Shown here piece by piece: positions 1 through 37,155 of a stretch of 37,155 nucleotides of DNA. The DNA comes from Candidatus Microgenomates bacterium (GTDB lineage: Bacteria > Patescibacteriota > Microgenomatia > JAADGY01). Position 1 is the first letter of the stretch, and each line of letters starts with the position of its first letter. Under the pieces are notes generated by a model. That model saw only the letters and a program-made list of their open reading frames with translations. It was not told where the DNA came from and did no database searches. Location of the stretch: positions 1 through 37,155 of the forward strand of contig WFRL01000058.1 of the NCBI GenBank assembly GCA_015486555.1. The letters are read 5' to 3'. Both the position numbers and the translations under genes were made by a program.

Positions 1-600
1 AACCTTCTTTTTCGCGTCATTCTGAACGAATGTGAAGAATCTAGCGTTAGCGCAAGGATTGTGGCACTCAAGTTTCTTTTCATTTCCTACCCCAAGGTTA
101 ATTGAGTGTTTTTTCTTTAACCCAGTTCCTCTAACCTAGCTCCTAGTTCCAATTACTAAGTTCCAAGCTCCAAGTTCTAAGTTCTGATTCCTGCGCTCGC
201 TTCCGCTCGCTAGATCCTTCACTTCGCCTAGCGGCTCGTTCAGGATGACACGAAGAGGAGGAAAGTACAACCTTCTCTCGAGTCATTCTGACCCTCCGGG
301 ACGGAGGGAAGAATCTAGCCGAAGGCGCATGGGTGTGTTCCTAAGCCTGAGTGCCAATTCCTGCGCTCGCTTCCGCTCGCTAGATCCTTCGTCGCTCTAG
401 CTCCTCAGGATGACCTGAGAGGAGGTTGTACTTCACCTCTTGGAGTGAGCTGTTTCCCCTTTCTCTGTCATCCTGAACGAGCCGACAGGCAAAGTGAAGA
501 ATCTAGCCGATAGGCGCACGAGAATCAACTCAAACCTGAGTGCCAATTCTTTGCGCTTCACTAGATCTTCCCCTCACCGAAGGGGGGTCGGAATGACTTG
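1..600. repeat. Cluster R1 of a composite palindromic intergenic element family. Three tandem elements (16-249, 282-414, 467-597), each built as arm + core + inverted arm.
   Basis: Arms read GTCATyCTGA-[variable hairpin]-GAAGrATCTAGC-[mini hairpin]-GCGCA at 16-54(+), 282-329(+) and 467-518(+). Inverted copies lie at 192-249, 362-414 and 552-597. The core carries GGCACTCAAG / CTGAGTGCCAAT. The long core of the first element includes a 7-nt periodic tract at about 124-190. The cluster is cut by the window edge. Confidence 0.85.
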
Positions 601-624
601 TAAACAGCGAGGGAAAACTATCAC

Positions 625-2668: not shown

Positions 2669-2679
2669 AAAAAATAGCA

Positions 2680-2713
2680 CCCCACCCTTTCTCAAAAAGG
2701 GTGGGGTCTTTTG
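2680..2713 (+). terminator. Rho-independent terminator after groEL
   Basis: Perfect 8-bp GC-rich stem CCCCACCC (2680-2687) / GGGTGGGG (2699-2706), 11-nt loop, followed by TCTTTTG. Confidence 0.7.
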
Positions 2714-2967
2714 TATTGAGGAAGTAATTGATCAACCAACTGGCGGAAAATAGTGATAGGCTTTTTATTTTTAAGGAGAAGGTAAGGGTTTCTCTTTGTT
2801 GGATGAATAAGCTGAGGGTCTTTAAGAAGCTCTTTTTGGTTCCTGAAATAAAGATTAATTAAAGATTATGGGAGTGACTGAGGGTCAATTAGTTGATAAA
2901 ACTGCCGTCGCCTCAGCTAGGCTAAGGTGACCTTCATCAGCAGTGAAGATAAGGGCTTGAATTTTTT

Positions 2968-3819: not shown

Positions 3820-3914
3820 CTCTCTTTATTTTAAACTATTGGAATACTATTTATCTTTCTCTATGGAGGATAAAGAACTTAAACTTAACTCGTTAAGGAG
3901 TTATCCCAGTCTGT

Positions 3915-4081
3915 CGGGATCTAGCGCAGCGCTGTGTTTTGGCTCTTTTCTCTCTTCAGGTCATTCTGAGCGGAGCGAAGAATCTAGCGAAGCGCAAATA
4001 CTTAGCTCCCAAACTTGAGTAGACACCCGTGCGCCTATCGGCTAGATCCTTCACTTCGCCTGACGGCTCGTTCAGGATGAC
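3915..4081. repeat. Cluster R2 of the palindromic element family (one full element 3960-4081 plus a truncated arm at about 3915-3934)
   Basis: Arm 3960-3996(+): GTCATTCTGAGCGGAGCGAAGAATCTAGCGAAGCGCA. Inverted arm at 4030-4081. The core carries AAACTTGAGT. Confidence 0.8.
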
Positions 4082-4256
4082 TTCAAGAGAAGAGATAATG
4101 TTCTGATCATTAGTTATTGGAATTTGGATATTGCCTGCCCCATAAAGAATGAAATTTCTTTCGGGGTTTGAAAATTGATCATTGATAATTGGTTATTTTA
4201 CTAAGTCCCGAGATCTGAGTTCTGAGATTTGGTTCCAATATGTTTATAATAAAACT

Positions 4257-12868: not shown

Positions 12869-12895
12869 ATAAAAATTATGACATACCTTTACATT

Positions 12896-13262
12896 GGAAC
12901 TCGGAGCTTGGAGCTTGGAACTTGGAACTCAGAACTTAGAACTTAGAGCTCGGAACTTAGCCTGTTAACGAGTCATTCTGAGGAGCCATAGCGACGAAGA
13001 ATCTAGCGAAGCGCAAAGGTATTAGCACTCAAGTTTTTTTCTAAGCTCTTACTACGGGTTATTAATTGTTTTTCAACCTAGTTCCTCCAACCTAGTTCCT
13101 AGTTCCAATTCCCTGCGCCTTCGGCTAGATCCTTCACTTCGCCTGACGGCTCGTTCAGGATGACACGGGAGATAAGGTTATGGATTTTGGTAATTAGGTT
13201 TTTGATATTGTTTAGGACCTGCCTGCTGGCAGGCAGGTTTAGAGTTTAGGATTTAGGATTTA
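12896..13262. repeat. Cluster R3: 7-nt tandem array (12896-12960), full long-core element (12972-13164), 22-nt palindrome (13217-13238) and TTTAGGA heptamers
   Basis: ARCTYRG heptamers repeated about 9 times. Arms at 12972-13015(+) and 13114-13164(-). ACCTGCCTGCtgGCAGGCAGGT, followed by gtttagg/atttagg/attta. Confidence 0.85.
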
Positions 13263-13310
13263 TTTTCATCTGTATCCTGATAATATATTCTTAATGTTAC
13301 AATAAGGTAA

Positions 13311-13664
13311 ATGCTGGGACTAAAACTATTAACCGATGTTTTGGCAGATGATAATGGAGTTGATGTCTATGAGAACTTTCTTGTTGGCAATAAACCTTCT
13401 CCCTTTACTAATTTAGCTTCACTAATAAATCTTCTCTATAAGAGTTTATTAGTGTTAGCGGGTATTGTTTTGTTTTTTCTTCTTATTTTGGGAGGGTTTA
13501 ACTATCTAGCCGGGGCAGGCCAGGAGAAATCAAATCAGGTTGAGAAGGGAAAGAAGGCTATCACTGGAGCGATAATAGGTTTTTTGTTGGTCTTCGCTGC
13601 TTATTGGATTATTCAGATTATTAGTTTGCTCACTGGAGTGAAGATTCTTAAATCTAATCTCTAG
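13311..13664 (+). CDS. VirB2/TrbC-type T4SS pilin-like two-TM protein (117 aa)
   Basis: Two hydrophobic helices flank the loop GGFNYLAGAGQEKSNQVEKGKKAITGAIIGF, the pattern I recognise from T4SS pilin families. There is no classical N-terminal signal peptide. Confidence 0.65.
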   Translation: MLGLKLLTDVLADDNGVDVYENFLVGNKPSPFTNLASLINLLYKSLLVLAGIVLFFLLILGGFNYLAGAGQEKSNQVEKGKKAITGAIIGFLLVFAAYWIIQIISLLTGVKILKSNL

Positions 13665-13681
13665 TGTATAATTAATTAACT

Positions 13682-14047
13682 ATGCCAGAAACAGGTCTTT
13701 CTATCGGCAACAAAATTTTTGGAGAGATAAAACCGCCGTCTGCAGGTGGAAAAGTAGGTGGATATGAAAGCAGTTTTAGTGGTTTGAGCAGTTTTATTAA
13801 GAATCTTATTTACCTTATCTTTGTTGTAGCCGGCCTTTATGCCCTCTTGAATTTCATTATGGCTGGTTTTGAGTTTATCGGAGCAGGGGGGGATAGTAAT
13901 AAAATAACCAGCGCCTGGAATAAAATCTGGCAGAGCCTCTTAGGTTTGATTATTATGATCGCTGCCTTTGCTCTAGCGGCCGTAGTCGGCCAAGTTCTCT
14001 TTGATCGTTGGGACTTTATTCTCAAACCAACTATTCCCACTCCTTAG
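13682..14047 (+). CDS. Second VirB2/TrbC-type T4SS pilin-like two-TM protein (121 aa), paralog of 13311-13664
   Basis: Same architecture: LIYLIFVVAGLYALLNFIMAGFEFIGAGGDSNKITSAWNKIWQSLLGLIIMIAAF. It starts 17 nt after the first pilin-like gene. Confidence 0.65.
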   Translation: MPETGLSIGNKIFGEIKPPSAGGKVGGYESSFSGLSSFIKNLIYLIFVVAGLYALLNFIMAGFEFIGAGGDSNKITSAWNKIWQSLLGLIIMIAAFALAAVVGQVLFDRWDFILKPTIPTP

Positions 14048-14190
14048 CTTAAAGCAATTGATTCCTAGTTGTTTATTCTTTGTTAGTTAATCCCTATTAG
14101 CCTTACCTAGTTAGAGACAGATAACAATAAGGAATAGTAAACATCCAACTTATTAAAGTGCACTTGTTCTAATCTTTTTTTCCTCTCCAG

Positions 14191-14573
14191 GTCCCCCAAT
14201 AGGTCGGGGCTAGCTAAGCACCTCTATAGAAAATTCTAAATCCTAAACAATATCACAATCCTAGTGATTTAAATTCAGAACTTTTTTTCCTGGTCATTCT
14301 GACCCTCCGTGGCGGAGGGGAAGAATCTAGCCGAAGGCGCATGGATGTGCTCCCAAGCGTGGATGCCAGCACCTCTGCGCTCGCTGTTGCTCGCTAGGTC
14401 CTTCACTTCGCCTGGCGGCTTGTTCAGGATAACCGGGGGAGGTGCGCCTTCGGCTAGATCCTTCGTCGCCACAGCTCCTCAGGATGACGGGGAGGGGGCG
14501 CCTAACAGCTCGTTCAGGATGACTCCTTAGAAAGGTTTTACTTTATGACTTTACAAACTTTATGCTTTATGAG
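14191..14573. repeat. Cluster R4: degenerate arm (14191-14220), full element (14293-14433), two further same-orientation arms (14443-14488, ~14497-14523) and CTTTATG repeats (14539-14573)
   Basis: Same arm consensus as R1-R3, e.g. GTCATTCTGACCCTCCGTGGCGGAGGGGAAGAATCTAGCCGAAGGCGCA at 14293-14341. Confidence 0.85.
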
Positions 14574-18471: not shown

Positions 18472-21447
18472 TTATTTTTCTTTAAGTTCGGGAGATAATG
18501 TTGGTGGCAGGCCGTTGGGGAAGCAGTGGAAACGATAAGGGCAACGGCGGCAGACTAAGCGATCTCTAGTCCGAGGAAATTCTAAATCTTGAATTTTTTG
18601 CCAAACATCAACTAGGAGTTGCCTTAGCTGTTCTTTTTCTTCTTCTGAAGGGGTGAAGCTGAAAAAGAGGGATTTTTGGTTACGGTTGCCGATAAACCAG
18701 AGAGCAAAGGTCAATTTTTTGTCTTCAAACTCTGGTTCGTTTTTGAGGAGAAGAGAATAAAAAGTCAGTTGGCGGCGATAGTCTTCATTAGGATCGGCTA
18801 GGGCCCTTTTAGAAGGTATATGGCCTGTTTTGTAATCAATAACTAGAAAAGTGTCCTTGTCAGAGATGTCTATTCGGTCAACCTTCCCTGTCAAAGGAAC
18901 CTTTTCTGGGGTAAAGACATGCTTTTGAGAGAAATCTAGTTCCGCCTTGTAAGGCTGGCTTTTTTTTAATTGAGGGAGAAGTTGGTCTTGGTAAAAGTGA
19001 GCTAGAAGTTGTTTGGCCTCTCCAATTACTCTTTCTTTTTCCTCCTCCTCGAGAATTTCTCGACTAATGTAGGTTTGAAGAACCTCATTTAATTGATCTA
19101 AACCAAGCCCGTTTTTTTCCTCTTTATAACTTAGCAGCCATTCCTCTAAGGCTTTATGGACAGCCGAGCCTAAAATAAGGTTGGCCGACTTAACTCGCGG
19201 TAAGCGGTAGAGATTATTCAGGAGGAACTGGTATGGGCAGCTAAGGTAGGTTTTTAAGCTGGTAGGAGATAACTTAATTCCTTTTAACCGTTCTCGCCAA
19301 TAGTCTTTTTCGGGAATGACCAGCTGGCTAGGCTTAAAAAGGGAGACAATTACCTTCTCTAATTTTTGTAAATTATCTTGATGTTCTTCTTGACTGATTA
19401 ATTTTTCATCCAGCCGATGGACGAAGACAGAGGGTAGGACTTTTTTCATTAAACCATCCGACCAAACATTAAGGGGGACAGTGATGAAAACCTGTTTTTT
19501 GGCTCGGGTTAAAGCCACATAGAACAGCCTTTCTTCCTCTTCTTCCTTCTCCTTGCGGGGGTCAGAAGAGAGTGAAGAAAACTCAACTATCTCAGCAGGT
19601 AACTTTAAGGGATTAGGAACGTTTTTATGGCTCCACTTTTTCTCAATAAACTGAGGAATGAAGACAACGCTAAACTCCTGCCCCTTGGCTTTATGGACTG
19701 TAGTTAACTTAACGGCCTCAGCATTGGTTAAGAGAGGCTCGGCTTCAAGGGAAAGATGGTGCTTTTCTAGGGTTTCTAGGACTTCTTCCAACTGAGATAA
19801 AGAAGTAACTGTCTGGTCTCGGTACCAGTTTTTGATTTGATTGAAGAAGGTGTAGAGATAAAAAAGTTGGTAACGGTCTTTCTGGCCATTCATTAATTGG
19901 GTTAAAAAGCCAGTCGAGTCCATTAAGTTTTGGATAAAAAGGGGTAGGGGAAGGCGGAGACTTTCCTTCTTAGCCTCCTCTAACTGGTCAAAAATTTTCC
20001 AGATGGGGGCAAAATGTTTTTCTCCTTGAAGGTAGTATTCAAAGATGTTTAAGCCGTTTTCTCTTGCTTGGCGGAAAGCTTGACCAATGAGAGTGGGAGA
20101 AAGGTGGTAAAAGGGCAGATTGAGGAGGTTGAATAATTTTTCCTCGGCTTCTTTCTGGCCCCAAAAGTTAACCACTGTCAGGAGAAGTTTTAATTGGAGA
20201 ACAACTGGCTGGTTGAGAATGTTAATCTGTCCTTCAACCACGTAGGGAATCTTTTCCTTATTAAGAAAAGGGATGTAAACGGCCGCGTCCTTGTTTTCCC
20301 GGTAAATAATTCCTATTTCCTGAGGAGGAAGACCTTCTTTGAGGAGTTTTTTAATTTCTTGAACAATGAACTCAGCTTCCTGAGTAAGTGAAGTAAAAAG
20401 GTGAAGTTGAACTCGACTTTGACTAAGAGAAGAAGTTGGTTTGGCCGCCTCTATTTTTTTATCTATCCCCAAGTTCAAGTTAAATTTCTTTCGTTGAGGT
20501 TCGATAAAATGCTGGCTAAGAAGAATAATCTCCTCTAGTGAACGATAATTAGTTTTCAAATTGATAATTTTTGTCCTGGGAAAGAGGTGTTTAAAGAAGA
20601 GAAAGTTAGCCCGGGAGGCTCCCTGAAAGCGGAAGATTGACTGGTCATCATCACCAACAACAAAAACATTAGCCTCCTCTCCCCAGAAAGTTGATAGTTG
20701 CCTGATTAGCTTATTTTGAGCAGCGTTAGTATCTTGATATTCATCTACCAAGAGATACAAGGTTCGTTCCTGAACCGCTAAAGCCAACTCTCTGTCTTTT
20801 TTGAGGAGAGTTATTACTTCATTAATCATATCCTCGAAGTCATAAAGGCCTTCTTTTTTTAAGCGGCGCTGATACTCTTGGTAAAGGTGGACCAATTCTT
20901 TTAGGCGCTTTTTCTGCTTATCCTCTAAGGAAGTAGAGGAAGAGATAATTTCCTTTAGTTGATCTGAATTAACCGACTCCTTTTTTAGGTCACTGAGAGC
21001 CTTGATTAAATGGCGAACGTAAAAACTAGTATCTCCAAAAGGTTTAAGGTAATAATAATTTCCCCTTTTTAGGATTTCTTCTATTAGCTGGATCTTTTCG
21101 ATGATATTTATCGGCCTGCCCTGACGGAGATGAGGAAACTTCTCCGGATATTGGCGAATAATCTGACCAGCTAGAGAATGAAAAGTAGAGATGTTTACTT
21201 GGTAAGCAGTTTCTCCTATGATTTGGGCCAAGCGGCTAATCATATTCTCGGCTGCCGCCTCGGTATAGGTGAGAGCGGTGATGGCGTAAGGGGGGGTATC
21301 AGTTTTTTGGAGAATATTGGCGATTCGAAGAGTTAGGACTTGAGTTTTTCCGGTGCCCGGACCGGCAATGACCATTACCGGACCCTCTAAACTGTCGACA
21401 GCCTCCTTTTGCCGCTGGTTTAAACTCTGGTAAAGTTGGTCAAACAT
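18472..21447 (-). CDS. UvrD/PcrA-type SF1 helicase fused to a C-terminal PD-(D/E)XK nuclease with a Cys cluster (AddA/AddB-like), 991 aa
   Basis: Walker A GPGTGKTQV, DEYQDT (motif II), VGDDDQSIFRFQGA, TVHKAKGQEF, YVALTRAK. Nuclease motifs GKVDRID...LVIDYKTG. Cysteines in CPYQF and CRRCPYRFHC. Confidence 0.85.
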   Translation of the reverse strand: MFDQLYQSLNQRQKEAVDSLEGPVMVIAGPGTGKTQVLTLRIANILQKTDTPPYAITALTYTEAAAENMISRLAQIIGETAYQVNISTFHSLAGQIIRQYPEKFPHLRQGRPINIIEKIQLIEEILKRGNYYYLKPFGDTSFYVRHLIKALSDLKKESVNSDQLKEIISSSTSLEDKQKKRLKELVHLYQEYQRRLKKEGLYDFEDMINEVITLLKKDRELALAVQERTLYLLVDEYQDTNAAQNKLIRQLSTFWGEEANVFVVGDDDQSIFRFQGASRANFLFFKHLFPRTKIINLKTNYRSLEEIILLSQHFIEPQRKKFNLNLGIDKKIEAAKPTSSLSQSRVQLHLFTSLTQEAEFIVQEIKKLLKEGLPPQEIGIIYRENKDAAVYIPFLNKEKIPYVVEGQINILNQPVVLQLKLLLTVVNFWGQKEAEEKLFNLLNLPFYHLSPTLIGQAFRQARENGLNIFEYYLQGEKHFAPIWKIFDQLEEAKKESLRLPLPLFIQNLMDSTGFLTQLMNGQKDRYQLFYLYTFFNQIKNWYRDQTVTSLSQLEEVLETLEKHHLSLEAEPLLTNAEAVKLTTVHKAKGQEFSVVFIPQFIEKKWSHKNVPNPLKLPAEIVEFSSLSSDPRKEKEEEEERLFYVALTRAKKQVFITVPLNVWSDGLMKKVLPSVFVHRLDEKLISQEEHQDNLQKLEKVIVSLFKPSQLVIPEKDYWRERLKGIKLSPTSLKTYLSCPYQFLLNNLYRLPRVKSANLILGSAVHKALEEWLLSYKEEKNGLGLDQLNEVLQTYISREILEEEEKERVIGEAKQLLAHFYQDQLLPQLKKSQPYKAELDFSQKHVFTPEKVPLTGKVDRIDISDKDTFLVIDYKTGHIPSKRALADPNEDYRRQLTFYSLLLKNEPEFEDKKLTFALWFIGNRNQKSLFFSFTPSEEEKEQLRQLLVDVWQKIQDLEFPRTRDRLVCRRCPYRFHCFPNGLPPTLSPELKEK

Positions 21448-24362: not shown

Positions 24363-24516
24363 ATAAGAATAAATCCGAAACTCTAAATTCTAAGCTCCAA
24401 ATAAATTCGAAATCCTAAATCCGAAATCCTAAACCTGCCTGCCGGCAGGCAGGTCCTAAATTCAAATGATCCAAATTCAAAACTTTTTCTCCAGGTCATC
24501 CTGAGGAAGCTGGGGG
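24363..24516. repeat. Cluster R5: CCTAAAT/CCGAAAT-type 7-nt array, 22-nt perfect palindrome (24433-24454), truncated arm (24495-24516)
   Basis: ACCTGCCTGCCGGCAGGCAGGT is a perfect palindrome and the inverted counterpart of 13217-13238. GTCATCCTGAGG starts at 24495. Confidence 0.8.
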
Positions 24517-29029: not shown

Positions 29030-29120
29030 CATCGTCTAAGTTCTATTTCCAAATACAACACAGCTGTTAGAAAGTAATTCATCACCAAAATAGAATTAGA
29101 TGATTTTATCTCTTATGCCT

Positions 29121-29275
29121 CCAACCTAGCTTCTAGTTCTAATCCCCATGCGCCTGTCGGCTAGATCCTTCGTCGCCCCAGCTCCTCAGGATGACGAGGA
29201 ATAAATTTTTAATTTGAAATTTTAATTTCTTTCCGAGCCCTGAGCTCTAAGTCCCAAGTTCCGGACTCCAATGAC
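29121..29275. repeat. Cluster R6: half element (core heptamers 29121-29147, arm 29149-29195) plus CYRAGYY heptamer array (29231-29275)
   Basis: TGCGCCTGTCGGCTAGATCCTTCGTCGCCCCAGCTCCTCAGGATGAC, followed by ccgagcc/ctgagct/ctaagtc/ccaagtt/ccggact. Confidence 0.8.
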
Positions 29276-30180: not shown

Positions 30181-30251
30181 AGCGGGATAGGGGAATCGAA
30201 CCCCCATTTTCTGCTTGGGAAGCAGATGTACTGCCACTGTACTAATCCCGC
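30181..30251 (-). tRNA. tRNA-Gly (anticodon CCC), no encoded CCA
   Basis: Manual cloverleaf: acceptor GCGGGAT/ATCCCGC, D-stem GTAC/GTAC with AGTGGCA loop, anticodon stem TCTGC/GCAGA with loop TTCCCAA, T-arm GGGGG-TTCGATT-CCCCT, discriminator U. Followed by CAA. Confidence 0.85.
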
Positions 30252-37037: not shown

Positions 37038-37155
37038 AACCTTCCTCTCTCCACGTCATCCTGAACGAGCCGTCAGGCGAAGTGAAGGATCTAGCCGAAG
37101 GCGCATGAGAGTTAACTTAAGTTTGGGTGCCAATACCTTTGCGCTCGCTCCGCTC
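37038..37155. repeat. Cluster R7 of the element family (arm 37055-37105, core, start of inverted arm at 37140; cut by the window end)
   Basis: GTCATCCTGAACGAGCCGTCAGGCGAAGTGAAGGATCTAGCCGAAGGCGCA, then ...GGGTGCCAAT...TTGCGCTCGCTCCGCTC. Confidence 0.8.

What the first reader, a model, noticed from the sequence alone, without database searches (positions are those of the whole stretch)
1..600. Composite palindromic intergenic elements whose arms show compensatory (covarying) base changes
At least 17 arm copies occur in 7 clusters. In a common orientation each arm reads GTC-ATyCT-GA-[variable hairpin]-GA-AGrAT-CTAGC-[GAA/GAAG/GATAG mini-loop]-GCGCA.

**Covariation.** In 13 of 14 full arms the y and r covary. 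ATTCT pairs with AGAAT at 16-54, 282-329, 3960-3996, 12972-13015 and 14293-14341. ATCCT pairs with AGGAT at 192-249, 362-414, 4030-4081, 13114-13164, 14376-14433, 14443-14488, 29149-29195 and 37055-37105. The only exception is 467-518.

**Inner hairpins.** They fall into three classes: CCCTCCG-nnn-CGGAGGG, GCC-nnnn-GGC, and GGAGC-nnnn-GCGAC. Changes concentrate in the loops (gga/tgg; gtca/gcta/gaca/gcca).

**Arm pairing.** Full elements pair one T-type arm with one C-type arm around a core carrying CTGAGTGCCAAT. Arm-to-arm pairing would create A-C mismatches, so each arm seems to fold on its own. The predicted fold is an outer 5-bp helix, tandem G-A, then an inner hairpin.

This points to selection on a folded RNA or ssDNA structure rather than simple decay of a MITE. 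Some mini-loops contain GCGAAGC, a sequence known to form a very stable DNA mini-hairpin. Similar sequences are, from memory, the source of many junk ORFs in metagenomes. I know of no assigned function.
Basis: seen in the sequence. Interest (0 to 1): 0.75.

Follow-up and report, generated by a model that had tools for sequence, protein, structure and literature searches.

The report
Hairpin repeats matching Ssn nuclease sites
The repeats are real and their stems show compensating base changes, but they belong to a known class: single-stranded-DNA hairpin repeats recognised by small GIY-YIG "Ssn" nucleases, seen here as a new variant in a candidate-phyla-radiation bacterium.

Summary
The window has about 18 arms in 7 clusters reading GTCATyCTGA-[hairpin]-GAAGrATCTAGC. 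The y/r positions pair in 13 of 14 full arms.

The same motif occurs across many bacterial phyla. There the pair is C-G, T-A or G-C in 140 of 144 copies, and two further stem pairs also covary.

The host is a Microgenomates-group CPR bacterium. My first guess of a cyanobacterium was wrong.

The arm has the tag (YGTC), the AT-first stem and the tail (ATC-YRG) of two described repeat classes:
- the NTS/"Ssn-related motif" repeats (Chenal 2025);
- the "CGTC-tagged REPs" (Di Nocera 2013).

In Neisseria the NTS hairpin is bound and cut, as single-stranded DNA only, by a 94-aa GIY-YIG nuclease.

Seven Ssn-homologue genes in other genomes sit next to this tandem-G·A arm type, five with arms on both sides. 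Close relatives lack the 823-nt repeat block upstream of groES, so the repeats were gained recently.

Three things are new: the tandem-G·A/nested-hairpin stem, which the published search pattern misses; tail-to-tail composite dimers; and swapped hairpin interiors between orthologous copies.

No Ssn gene was found in the window or in 171 kb from this clade, so whether this genome has the partner is untested.

The parts
16..54 (+). Arm (SRM-like hairpin HP1 plus mini-hairpin HP2), T/A type with a short interior ACGAATGT. Left arm of element E1.
191..249 (-). Arm, C/G type, interior ACGAGCC-GCTA-GGCGAAGT. Right arm of E1. E1 (16-249) carries heptamer repeats at 110-190.
282..329 (+). Arm, T/A type, interior CCCTCCG-GGA-CGGAGG. 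Left arm of E2.
347..358 (+). Core CTGAGTGCCAAT between the two arms of E2. The same core lies at 537-548 in E3, and related cores occur in E1, E4, E5, E6 and E10.
   Evidence: families D3, D5
362..414 (-). Arm, C/G type, interior GGAGC-TAGA-GCGAC. Right arm of E2. The E2 palindrome extends to 264-433.
467..518 (+). Arm with the one y/r mismatch (C..A). Left arm of E3.
541..598 (-). Degenerate arm GTCATTCCGA-CCCCCCTTCGGTGAGGG-GAAG-ATCTAG with one base missing. Right arm of E3.
1..620 (.). Window part of an 823-nt repeat block that continues upstream of the window. It lies between the RuBisCO stop codon and the groES -35 box. Relatives with 97% and 93% GroEL identity lack it.
3900..3932 (+). 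Extra arm of the continuous-stem type, GTTAT-CCCAGTCTGTCGGG-ATCTAG-CGCAGCGC.
3960..3996 (+). Minimal canonical arm GTCATTCTGA-GCGGAGC-GAAGAATCTAGC-GAAGCGCA. Left arm of E4.
4030..4081 (-). Arm, C/G type. Right arm of E4. E4 is present at the orthologous site in L124-L126 but with different hairpin interiors.
12972..13015 (+). Arm, T/A type. Left arm of the long element E5 (12972-13164), which has a heptamer insert at 13066-13110.
13114..13164 (-). Arm, C/G type. Right arm of E5. 100% complementary to 37055-37105.
   Evidence: (I3)
14293..14341 (+). Arm, T/A type. Left arm of E6.
14376..14433 (-). Arm, C/G type with two substitutions (GTTAT, GGACC). Right arm of E6.
14443..14488 (-). Solo arm, C/G type, in direct orientation with 14376-14433.
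14499..14523 (-). Partial arm: 5' half plus half of the interior.
24495..24504 (+). Isolated 5' half, GTCATCCTGA.
29149..29195 (-). Solo arm, C/G type, preceded by a heptamer region like the right part of E1/E5.
37055..37105 (+). Arm, C/G type. Left arm of E10.
37141..37155 (-). Start of the right arm of E10, cut by the window end. Public contigs of this genome also break here.

Best explanation
Each arm is a directional single-stranded-DNA hairpin of the Ssn-related-motif (SRM/NTS) kind, equivalent to the 'CGTC-tagged REP' superfamily.

**Anatomy of the arm.**
- An unpaired YGTC tag.
- A stem that starts A-T, T-A.
- A C immediately after the stem, then a YRG tail (here TAG).
- In this variant, stem positions 6-7 are tandem G·A mismatches.
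- The tip is a GCGNAGC-type mini-hairpin or a longer nested hairpin.
- The minimal form (GTC + 9 + 3 + 9 + CTAG) is 28 nt, the same length as the Neisseria NTS.

**Proposed mechanism.**
1. The strand becomes single-stranded, for example during replication, DNA uptake or transfer.
2. The arm folds on its own.
3. A small GIY-YIG nuclease of the Ssn family (cd10448) binds the stem and the 3' C.
4. It cuts a few nucleotides 5' of GTC.

Arms sit tail-to-tail. Each strand of a dimer therefore carries one correctly oriented site, with its cut position on the outer flank.

**Shown here.**
- The anatomy of the arms.
- Covariation in the stem.
- The wide spread across phyla.
- Recent gain in this lineage.
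- Ssn-homologue genes flanked by this arm type in other genomes.

**Taken from the literature.**
- ssDNA-only binding and cleavage.
- Which bases matter for binding and for cutting.
- Tolerance of changes at the loop.

**Inferred.**
- That this genome has a cognate Ssn.
- That this Ssn acts on these arms.
- That the effect is restriction or modulation of incoming or recombining ssDNA.
- That the Ssn also drives the spread of the repeats.
For: **1. Match to the published motif.** NTS is CGTCATTCCCGCGMAVGCGGGAATCYRG.
- For N. meningitidis SsnA, the three bases 5' of the palindrome are critical for cleavage.
- The C just 3' of the palindrome is the most critical base for binding.
- The loop can be removed or extended.
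- RNA, dsDNA and the reverse strand are not substrates.
- The arms conserve exactly GTC, AT..AT and C-TAG.
- The base 5' of GTC is T, C or A in 212 of 227 arms. This fits HGTC, and it fits the CGTC/TGTC tags of Di Nocera.

**2. Covariation.**
- C-G 80, T-A 48, G-C 12 against 4 non-Watson-Crick among 144 cross-phylum copies.
- An anchor-only search gave 311 matches, against 20 in a reversed-sequence control.
- Of those, 227 are complementary at all three free pairs, with 8 triplet types.
- 0 of 500 shuffles reach the observed covariation score.

**3. Ssn genes next to this arm variant.**
- L103: arm 9 nt from the gene, with a degraded arm (intact 5' half and interior) on the other side.
- L044: GTCATTGCGA..GAAGCAATC on both sides.
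- L212, L213, L220, L222 and L214; L214 has an arm on one side only.
- 61 of 80 metagenomic Ssn loci carry GTCAT..ATCCAG arms: 154 arms against 3 in the control.
- A Saccharibacteria (CPR) ssn gene is flanked on both sides.

**4. Both arm types share one frame.** Within this clade, continuous-stem SRM arms (GTCATCCCGACTTGTCGGGATCTAG) and tandem-G·A arms occupy the same position of orthologous elements. They share tag, tail and flanks.

**5. DNA mini-hairpin interiors.** Interiors are mostly GCGNAGC or GCGNNAGC with N any base. This is the published DNA mini-hairpin consensus.

**6. Recent gain.** The RuBisCO-groES spacer is 915 nt here, against 92 nt and 84 nt in relatives.

**7. Copy density.** About 18 arms in 37 kb implies hundreds per genome. 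Chenal et al. report that 81% of genomes with more than 200 SRMs encode an Ssn.
Against: - No GIY-YIG/Ssn gene is present in the window or in 171 kb from this clade. This is only a fraction of these genomes.
- The published degenerate SRM search string matches none of the window's arms.
- The Ssn homologues closest to the CPR (Saccharibacteria) protein are flanked by continuous-stem arms with a CCAG tail, and only rarely by tandem-G·A arms.
- Chenal et al. found that changing the stem sequence while keeping the hairpin abolished SsnA activity. Each variant therefore needs its own cognate enzyme, which has not been identified here.
- Nothing biochemical was tested.
- The conserved extras have no role in the Ssn model. 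These are the HP2 mini-hairpin, the GCGCA, the CTGAGTGCCAAT core and the CT-rich outer palindrome.
Confidence: 0.75

Rival explanations
1. The arms act as RNA. When transcribed with neighbouring genes they fold into hairpins that stabilise, terminate or process mRNA, and the covariation reflects selection on RNA.
For: - RNA folding predicts the same structure.
- Di Nocera et al. argue that many REPs are transcribed, citing G-T pairs and positions downstream of genes.
- The elements sit in transcribed-looking spacers, for example upstream of groES.
Against: - No Rfam family matches, even at E<=10.
- Every dimer presents both orientations, so there is no strand preference relative to genes.
- T·G and C·A mismatches are about equally rare, so there is no one-strand wobble signature.
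- The commonest interiors are the DNA mini-hairpin consensus.
- N. meningitidis SsnA, which recognises the NTS motif with the same tag and tail, does not bind RNA.
- Identical unpaired tag and tail bases across more than 10 phyla fit a protein site better than a generic stabiliser hairpin.
Confidence: 0.1
2. The ~133-235-nt composites are ordinary MITEs. Their ~50-nt terminal inverted repeats would be bound as double-stranded DNA by a DDE transposase encoded elsewhere.
For: - The architecture looks like inverted repeats.
- There is presence/absence polymorphism between close relatives.
- A possible 'AT' duplication sits at the ends of the 823-nt block.
- Assemblies break at the elements.
Against: - Compensatory changes within one arm are not expected for a dsDNA transposase site.
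- Arms occur solo and in direct tandem (14376-14523).
- The same arm combines with different spacers and cores in different phyla: 108 tail-to-tail dimers with 6-124-nt gaps.
- No transposase was found in the window or recurring near arms in 118 loci.
- A 2-nt 'duplication' is within chance, and the block is a composite of several elements.
Confidence: 0.1
3. The arms are REP/REPIN elements mobilised by a RAYT (IS200/IS605-type Y1 HUH transposase).
For: - The general design is the same: an unpaired tag, an imperfect hairpin, inverted dimers and clusters.
- The analogy is drawn in both papers.
Against: - RAYT-associated REPs carry a GTAG tag, whereas these carry YGTC.
- Di Nocera et al. found no dedicated tyrosine transposase for CGTC repeats.
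- The genes actually flanked by this arm type are GIY-YIG, not HUH.
- No Y1 transposase is present in the window.
Confidence: 0.03

Closest known systems
NTS / Ssn-related motifs (SRM) with Ssn GIY-YIG ssDNA nucleases (Chenal et al. 2025, Nat Commun 16:2388, PMC11893778). The Neisseria NTS contains the dRS3 repeat.
   Same: - Directional hairpin repeat with an HGTC tag, a stem starting AT, a C right after the stem and a YRG tail.
- Overall size of 20-50 nt.
- Hundreds of copies, mostly intergenic, in clusters that bracket genes.
- Homologues of ssnA flanked by the motif.
- Wide distribution across phyla.
   Different: - The stem has tandem G·A at positions 6-7, and often a long nested hairpin in place of a 3-5-nt loop.
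- The published degenerate search string does not match.
- The tail is CTAG(C) followed by a second mini-hairpin.
- Arms are built into tail-to-tail composites with a conserved core.
- The host is a CPR bacterium.
- The cognate nuclease in this genome was not found.
CGTC-tagged REPs (Di Nocera et al. 2013, BMC Genomics 14:522, PMC3733652). These include Neisseria dRS3 and Rickettsia RPE-4/6.
   Same: - CGTC/TGTC tag.
- A-T and T-A as the first two stem pairs.
- A short unpaired tail.
- Complementary stem changes that define subfamilies.
- Dimers in which unlike partners are favoured.
- No dedicated transposase known.
   Different: - That paper describes 8-9-bp continuous stems with 4-5-nt loops, a CCA tail and mostly head-to-head dimers.
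- It reports five phyla, none of them CPR.
- Here the dimers are tail-to-tail (108 against 12 head-to-head), the tail is CTA, and the stem holds G·A mismatches and nested hairpins.
REP/REPIN-RAYT systems (Nunvar 2010; Bertels and Rainey 2011, PMC3116915)
   Same: - Tagged ssDNA hairpins in inverted pairs.
- Clusters resembling BIMEs.
- A small enzyme gene flanked by its own repeats.
   Different: - GTAG tag and an HUH Y1 transposase, rather than YGTC and a GIY-YIG nuclease.
DNA mini-hairpins GCGNAGC / GCGNNAGC (Hirao and colleagues; review PMC13037366)
   Same: - The commonest arm interior across phyla (GCGNAGC/GCGNNAGC) and HP2 in this window fit these consensus sequences, with N being any base.
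   Different: - Those papers describe a structural motif, not a genomic repeat family.
Small dispersed repeats of Nostoc (Elhai et al. 2008, Genome Res 18:1484). Recalled from memory; the paper is not held in the library.
   Same: - The idea of very small hairpin modules that appear inside other repeats resembles the swapped interiors seen here.
   Different: - Not checked against sequence.
- The host here is not a cyanobacterium.

Membership tests
Ssn-related motif (SRM/NTS) repeats | Directional unpaired HGTC tag immediately 5' of the palindrome | tested here: met
   GTC (GTT in two copies) precedes every arm. The base 5' of GTC is A, C or T in 212 of 227 cross-phylum arms.
Ssn-related motif (SRM/NTS) repeats | Hairpin-forming inverted repeat of 20-50 nt whose stem is kept by compensating changes | tested here: met
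   HP1 is 25-41 nt. Covariation holds at three pairs, and 0 of 500 shuffles reach the observed score.
Ssn-related motif (SRM/NTS) repeats | C immediately 3' of the palindrome, then a YRG tail (NTS ...GGGAAT-C-YRG) | tested here: met
   ...AGrAT-C-TAG in all full arms. The C was fixed by my search patterns, so its conservation beyond the window is not independently measured.
Ssn-related motif (SRM/NTS) repeats | Match to the published search string HGTCWYN(0-2)YYVSBRHN(0-5)WNVSBRGN(0-2)RNCYNB | tested here: not met
   The one hit in the window is a chance match inside a gene at 19302 (shuffle mean 0.1). None of the arms matches. By hand parsing, the string also appears to miss the SRMs flanking the CPR ssn gene in L015; I did not run the regex on that locus.
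Ssn-related motif (SRM/NTS) repeats | A cd10448-type GIY-YIG (ssn) gene in the same genome, typically flanked by the motif | tested here: inconclusive
   None in the window or in 171 kb of this clade. The rest of the genome could not be searched. In other genomes the same arm variant flanks Ssn homologues: L103, L044, L212, L213, L220, L222 and L214.
Ssn-related motif (SRM/NTS) repeats | Bound and cleaved as ssDNA, on one strand only, by the cognate Ssn | not testable with these tools
   Needs protein and oligonucleotide assays.
CGTC-tagged REPs (Di Nocera 2013) | CGTC (or TGTC/CCTC) tag, with A-T and T-A as the first two stem pairs | tested here: met
   The base before GTC is T in 114 and C in 77 of 227 arms. 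AT..AT is present in all window arms, but it was fixed by the search patterns elsewhere.
CGTC-tagged REPs (Di Nocera 2013) | 8-9-bp stem, 4-5-nt loop, CCA-like tail, mostly head-to-head dimers | tested here: not met
   The minimal arm has 9 stem positions, but two are G·A, and many arms carry 13-19-nt interiors. The tail is CTA. Dimers are tail-to-tail, 108 against 12.
REP/REPIN-RAYT | GTAG tag and an associated Y1 (HUH) RAYT gene | tested here: not met
   The tag is YGTC. There is no Y1 transposase among the window ORFs, and no protein family recurs next to the arms in 118 loci.
MITE | Terminal inverted repeats matching a full-length IS, plus a constant target-site duplication | tested here: inconclusive
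   The arrangement looks like inverted repeats, and insertion polymorphism is seen. No IS with these ends was found. Only an ambiguous 2-nt 'AT' sits at the ends of a composite block.
Any Rfam RNA family | Covariance-model match | tested here: not met
   At gathering threshold only a tRNA matches. At E<=10 on 1-650 there are only chance miRNA/snoRNA hits.

The most novel reading that the evidence does not exclude
The tandem-G·A arm could be the signature of a distinct, very widespread Ssn subfamily system, found in Planctomycetota, Chloroflexota, Acidobacteriota, Omnitrophota, CPR and others. In that reading the GIY-YIG nuclease is not only a restriction-like ssDNase. It would also be the enzyme that spreads tail-to-tail arm dimers, as a GIY-YIG counterpart of RAYT/REPIN. 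The hairpin tip would be a tolerated 'cargo' position where tiny hairpin modules are exchanged between copies.
Probability: 0.2. Interest if true: 0.7.

Novelty: new variant of a known kind. Interest (0 to 1): 0.4.

Why it matters
- It links a very common sequence, a source of junk ORFs in metagenomes from many phyla, to a recently characterised enzyme family.
- It shows that the published search pattern misses a large variant class.
- If the cognate nucleases are confirmed, each variant offers a new ssDNA-cutting specificity.
- In CPR bacteria, which are thought to depend on taking up foreign DNA, such sites could shape which DNA is integrated. That role is my speculation.
- In practice, these repeats fragment assemblies of this lineage.

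Tried and rejected
- **Cyanobacterial origin.** I first assumed a Nostoc-type host, with Nezha MITEs or small dispersed repeats, because of the heptamer repeats and GC content. GroEL homology places the window in Microgenomates-group CPR.
- **Elhai 2008.** The paper could not be read.
- **Rfam.** Nothing matched at gathering or at a permissive threshold.
- **Hammerhead or K-turn.** I rejected both by inspection. CUGA..GAAG lacks the hammerhead spacing and the A15.1-U16.1 pair. There is no 3-nt bulge for a K-turn.
- **Neighbouring proteins.** All-against-all clustering of ORFs from 118 motif-bearing loci found no recurrent neighbour. The 80-aa cut-off and 1e-8 threshold hid the roughly 95-aa Ssn genes, which a motif search later found in 4 loci.
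- **Literature search by sequence string.** It returned only primers.
- **Supplementary files.** Those of both key papers hold no usable sequences.
- **Viral contigs.** Only 4 hits, not pursued.
- **Folding energies.** They do not separate the arms from shuffles.
- **Extending the window past E10.** This failed because public contigs end at the element.
- **Ssn in the clade.** A tblastn search for Ssn in 171 kb of clade DNA found nothing.
Full report
**1. The observation**

They read GTCATyCTGA-[7-19 nt]-GAAGrATCTAGC, followed by a short GC mini-hairpin and GCGCA.
- The y/r positions are T..A in 5 arms, C..G in 8 and C..A in one (467-507).
- Half-motif searches and a looser search add five more:
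  - an arm at 3900-3932;
  - a degenerate arm at 541-598;
  - a partial arm at 14499-14523;
  - a 5' half at 24495-24504;
  - an arm cut by the window end at 37141-37155.
- Tag + tail + three complementary pairs gives 13 hits, against 0.11 in dinucleotide shuffles.

Complete elements are tail-to-tail dimers. Each is an arm, about 17 nt, a core such as CTGAGTGCCAAT, then an inverted arm. They are E2 282-414, E3 467-598, E4 3960-4081 and E6 14293-14433. Two long versions carry heptamer repeats inside: E1 16-249 and E5 12972-13164.

The palindrome of E2 runs about 18 nt further out, 264-281 against 415-433. All intact dimers pair a T/A arm with a C/G arm.

**2. The organism**

I first took the window for a Nostoc-like cyanobacterium. 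That was wrong.
- GroEL (1031-2668) is 67% identical to Gottesman-, Woese- and Beckwithbacteria proteins, which places it in the Microgenomates group of CPR/Patescibacteria.
- Unnamed MAGs are 83-97% identical.
- The window is identical to a contig of GCA_027073895.1.
- Window genes are housekeeping: groES/EL, LeuRS, an AddA-like helicase-nuclease, MurJ, TerC, kinases, and two type-IV-secretion-pilin-like ORFs.
- There is no transposase and no GIY-YIG protein.

**3. The arm is not lineage-specific**

They come from:
- Planctomycetota, Chloroflexota, Acidobacteriota and Omnitrophota;
- several CPR groups;
- Fibrobacter, Bacillota, Nitrospirales, Bacteroidota and Proteobacteria;
- Melainabacteria and others.

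The two free positions read C-G 80, T-A 48, G-C 12, C-A 2, T-G 1 and T-T 1.

Anchoring only on GTCAT and ATCYRG gave 311 matches, against 20 in reversed sequences. Of these, 227 are complementary at all three free pairs. The triplets are CCT, TCT, GCT, TCC, CCC, TTC, TGC and TAC.

On a random 150 of these:
- 90.4% of cells pair, against 81.3% in shuffles;
- both-sided changes occur at three pairs (57, 5 and 23 cells);
- no shuffle reaches the observed covariation score;
- sliding the partner column destroys the pairing.

Folding energies are unremarkable, with z from -2.5 to +0.6. The minimum-energy fold usually reproduces the proposed structure: a 5-bp helix, a GA/GA internal loop, an inner hairpin and a second mini-hairpin.

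**4. What it is**

Rfam has nothing. Two papers describe the class.

Di Nocera et al. 2013 (PMC3733652) define 'CGTC-tagged REPs'. Their features are:
- an unpaired CGTC/TGTC tag;
- a stem that almost always starts A-T, T-A;
- a short loop and a short unpaired tail;
- complementary stem variants;
- dimers that favour unlike partners;
- no dedicated transposase.

Neisseria dRS3 and Rickettsia RPE-4/6 are members.

Chenal et al. 2025 (PMC11893778) show that the extended dRS3 is the recognition site of SsnA. This extended repeat, the NTS, reads CGTCATTCCCGCGMAVGCGGGAATCYRG. SsnA is a 94-aa single-domain GIY-YIG protein (cd10448).
- It binds the hairpin only as single-stranded DNA, in one orientation.
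- It cuts a few nucleotides upstream.
- The three bases 5' of the palindrome govern cleavage.
- The C just 3' of the palindrome is the most important base for binding.
- The loop can be deleted or extended.
- Homologues are widespread, and 71% have related motifs (SRMs) nearby.

The arm here has the same tag, the same first stem pairs and the same C-YRG tail. The base before GTC is T, C or A in 93% of arms. The minimal arm, GTC + 9 stem positions + 3 + 9 + CTAG, is 28 nt like the NTS. Sheared G·A pairs replace stem positions 6-7.

**5. Direct link between this variant and Ssn genes**

A motif search of the 118 loci found Ssn-like ORFs in four. I confirmed GIY-YIG for two of them.
- **L103:** an arm GTCATCCTGA..GAAGGATCTAGC lies 9 nt from the start codon, and a degraded arm with an intact 5' half and interior lies beyond the stop.
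- **L044:** the gene is bracketed by GTCATTGCGA..GAAGCAATC arms.
- **Homologues of the L103 protein:** fetched with their flanks, they are again next to tandem-G·A arms. L212, L213, L220/L221 and L222 have arms on both sides; L214/L215 has one downstream only.
- **L015:** a Saccharibacteria ssn gene is flanked on both sides by continuous-stem arms, GTCATCCCAGACTTGATCTGGGATCCAG.
- **Metagenomic loci:** 61 of 80 loci encoding its close homologues carry such arms. There are 154 arms against 3 in a reversed control, usually in the order arm, gene, inverted arm.

Different Ssn clades thus seem to have different stem types.

In the window's own clade both types occur with the same tag and tail. They even replace each other at the same position of an orthologous element.

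**6. Dynamics**

- In relatives with 97% and 93% GroEL identity, the RuBisCO-groES spacer is 92 nt and 84 nt. In the window's genome it is 915 nt.
- The extra 823 nt lie exactly between the stop codon and the -35 box. They hold heptamer repeats, another palindrome, and E1-E3.
- E4 is shared with relatives at about 90% identity, while the flanking genes are about 82% identical.
- The hairpin interiors of E4 differ between the orthologous copies:
  - GCGGAGC against ACGAATGT;
  - a tandem-G·A arm with a 19-nt interior against a continuous stem.
- Across phyla the arms are overwhelmingly tail-to-tail dimers: 108, against 12 head-to-head and 13 direct.
- Unlike partners show only a weak excess: 65 of 108 against 51% expected, and copies are not independent.

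**7. DNA or RNA**

Evidence for ssDNA:
- N. meningitidis SsnA, characterised on the related NTS motif, rejects RNA.
- The commonest interiors are GCGNAGC and GCGNNAGC with any N. This is the consensus of the exceptionally stable DNA mini-hairpins.
- There is no strand bias and no one-sided wobble pattern.

An additional RNA-level effect is not excluded.

**8. What is not settled**

- No Ssn gene was found in the window or in 171 kb from the clade.
- The published SRM search string does not match these arms.
- The roles of the second mini-hairpin, the GCGCA, the core and the CT-rich outer palindrome are unknown.
- How the arms spread is not known, here or in the literature.

**9. Verdict**

The feature is real and strongly constrained. 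It belongs to the SRM / CGTC-REP kind and is most likely the ssDNA site of an Ssn-family nuclease.

It is a new variant in three respects: its tandem-G·A/nested-hairpin stem, its tail-to-tail composite elements, and its CPR host. It is not a new kind of element. The statement that no function is assigned, and the suggested Y1-transposase partner, were not.

Noticed in passing
window 110-190, 4198-4236, 12894-12963, 13066-13110, 29100-29144: Tandem heptamer repeats (AGTTCCA/AGCTCCA/AGTTCTA and their complements) lie inside or beside the long elements E1 and E5 and next to solo arms (families D4, D6, D7).
   Followed up: no
window 13211-13261 and 24410-24460; also L123 about 2190-2215: A second dispersed palindrome, ACCTGCCTGC(C/T)GGCAGGCAGGT, is flanked by TTTAGGA-type heptamers. 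The two copies are 92% complementary (I4). It also forms part of the inserted block upstream of groES.
   Followed up: no
window about 650-677; 13022-13030; 349-357: A weak CIRCE-like inverted repeat (ATAGCAGTT-N9-GTTTGCTAA) lies between the groES promoter and the start codon. It is conserved in relatives. Element cores carry a CIRCE-like half site: TTAGCACTC exactly in E5, and GAGTGCCAA in E2. This may be coincidence.
   Followed up: partly
window 12972-14523: Two type-IV-secretion-pilin-like ORFs (13311-13664 and 13682-14047) are bracketed by arm clusters. This is the 'repeat-gene-repeat' layout that Chenal et al. describe around Neisseria surface-protein genes.
   Followed up: partly
window 2669-2967, against L124 11689-12813: Relatives carry an MGDG-synthase-like glycosyltransferase gene right after groEL. 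The window's genome lacks it.
   Followed up: no
window 37055-37155; L223, L224: Public contigs of this genome end inside or beside E10, so these repeats fragment short-read assemblies.
   Followed up: partly
L183 1701-3584: Next to a metagenomic ssn gene there are at least 15 same-orientation arms (GTCATTCCCTCGNAAGAGGGAATCC) in a regular array, with spacing of roughly 83-116 nt or multiples of that.
   Followed up: no
window 566-583; L037 2727-2743; L124 3425-3441: A small hairpin module, CCCCCCTTCGGTrAGGGG, appears nested at different places inside different arms. This suggests exchange of tiny hairpin units between copies.
   Followed up: no
L123 838-2085 (just upstream of the window): A 415-aa RuBisCO large-subunit homologue lies directly upstream of groES, an arrangement conserved in relatives.
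   Followed up: no
window 30181-30251 (-): A tRNA gene, the only Rfam match in the window.
   Followed up: no
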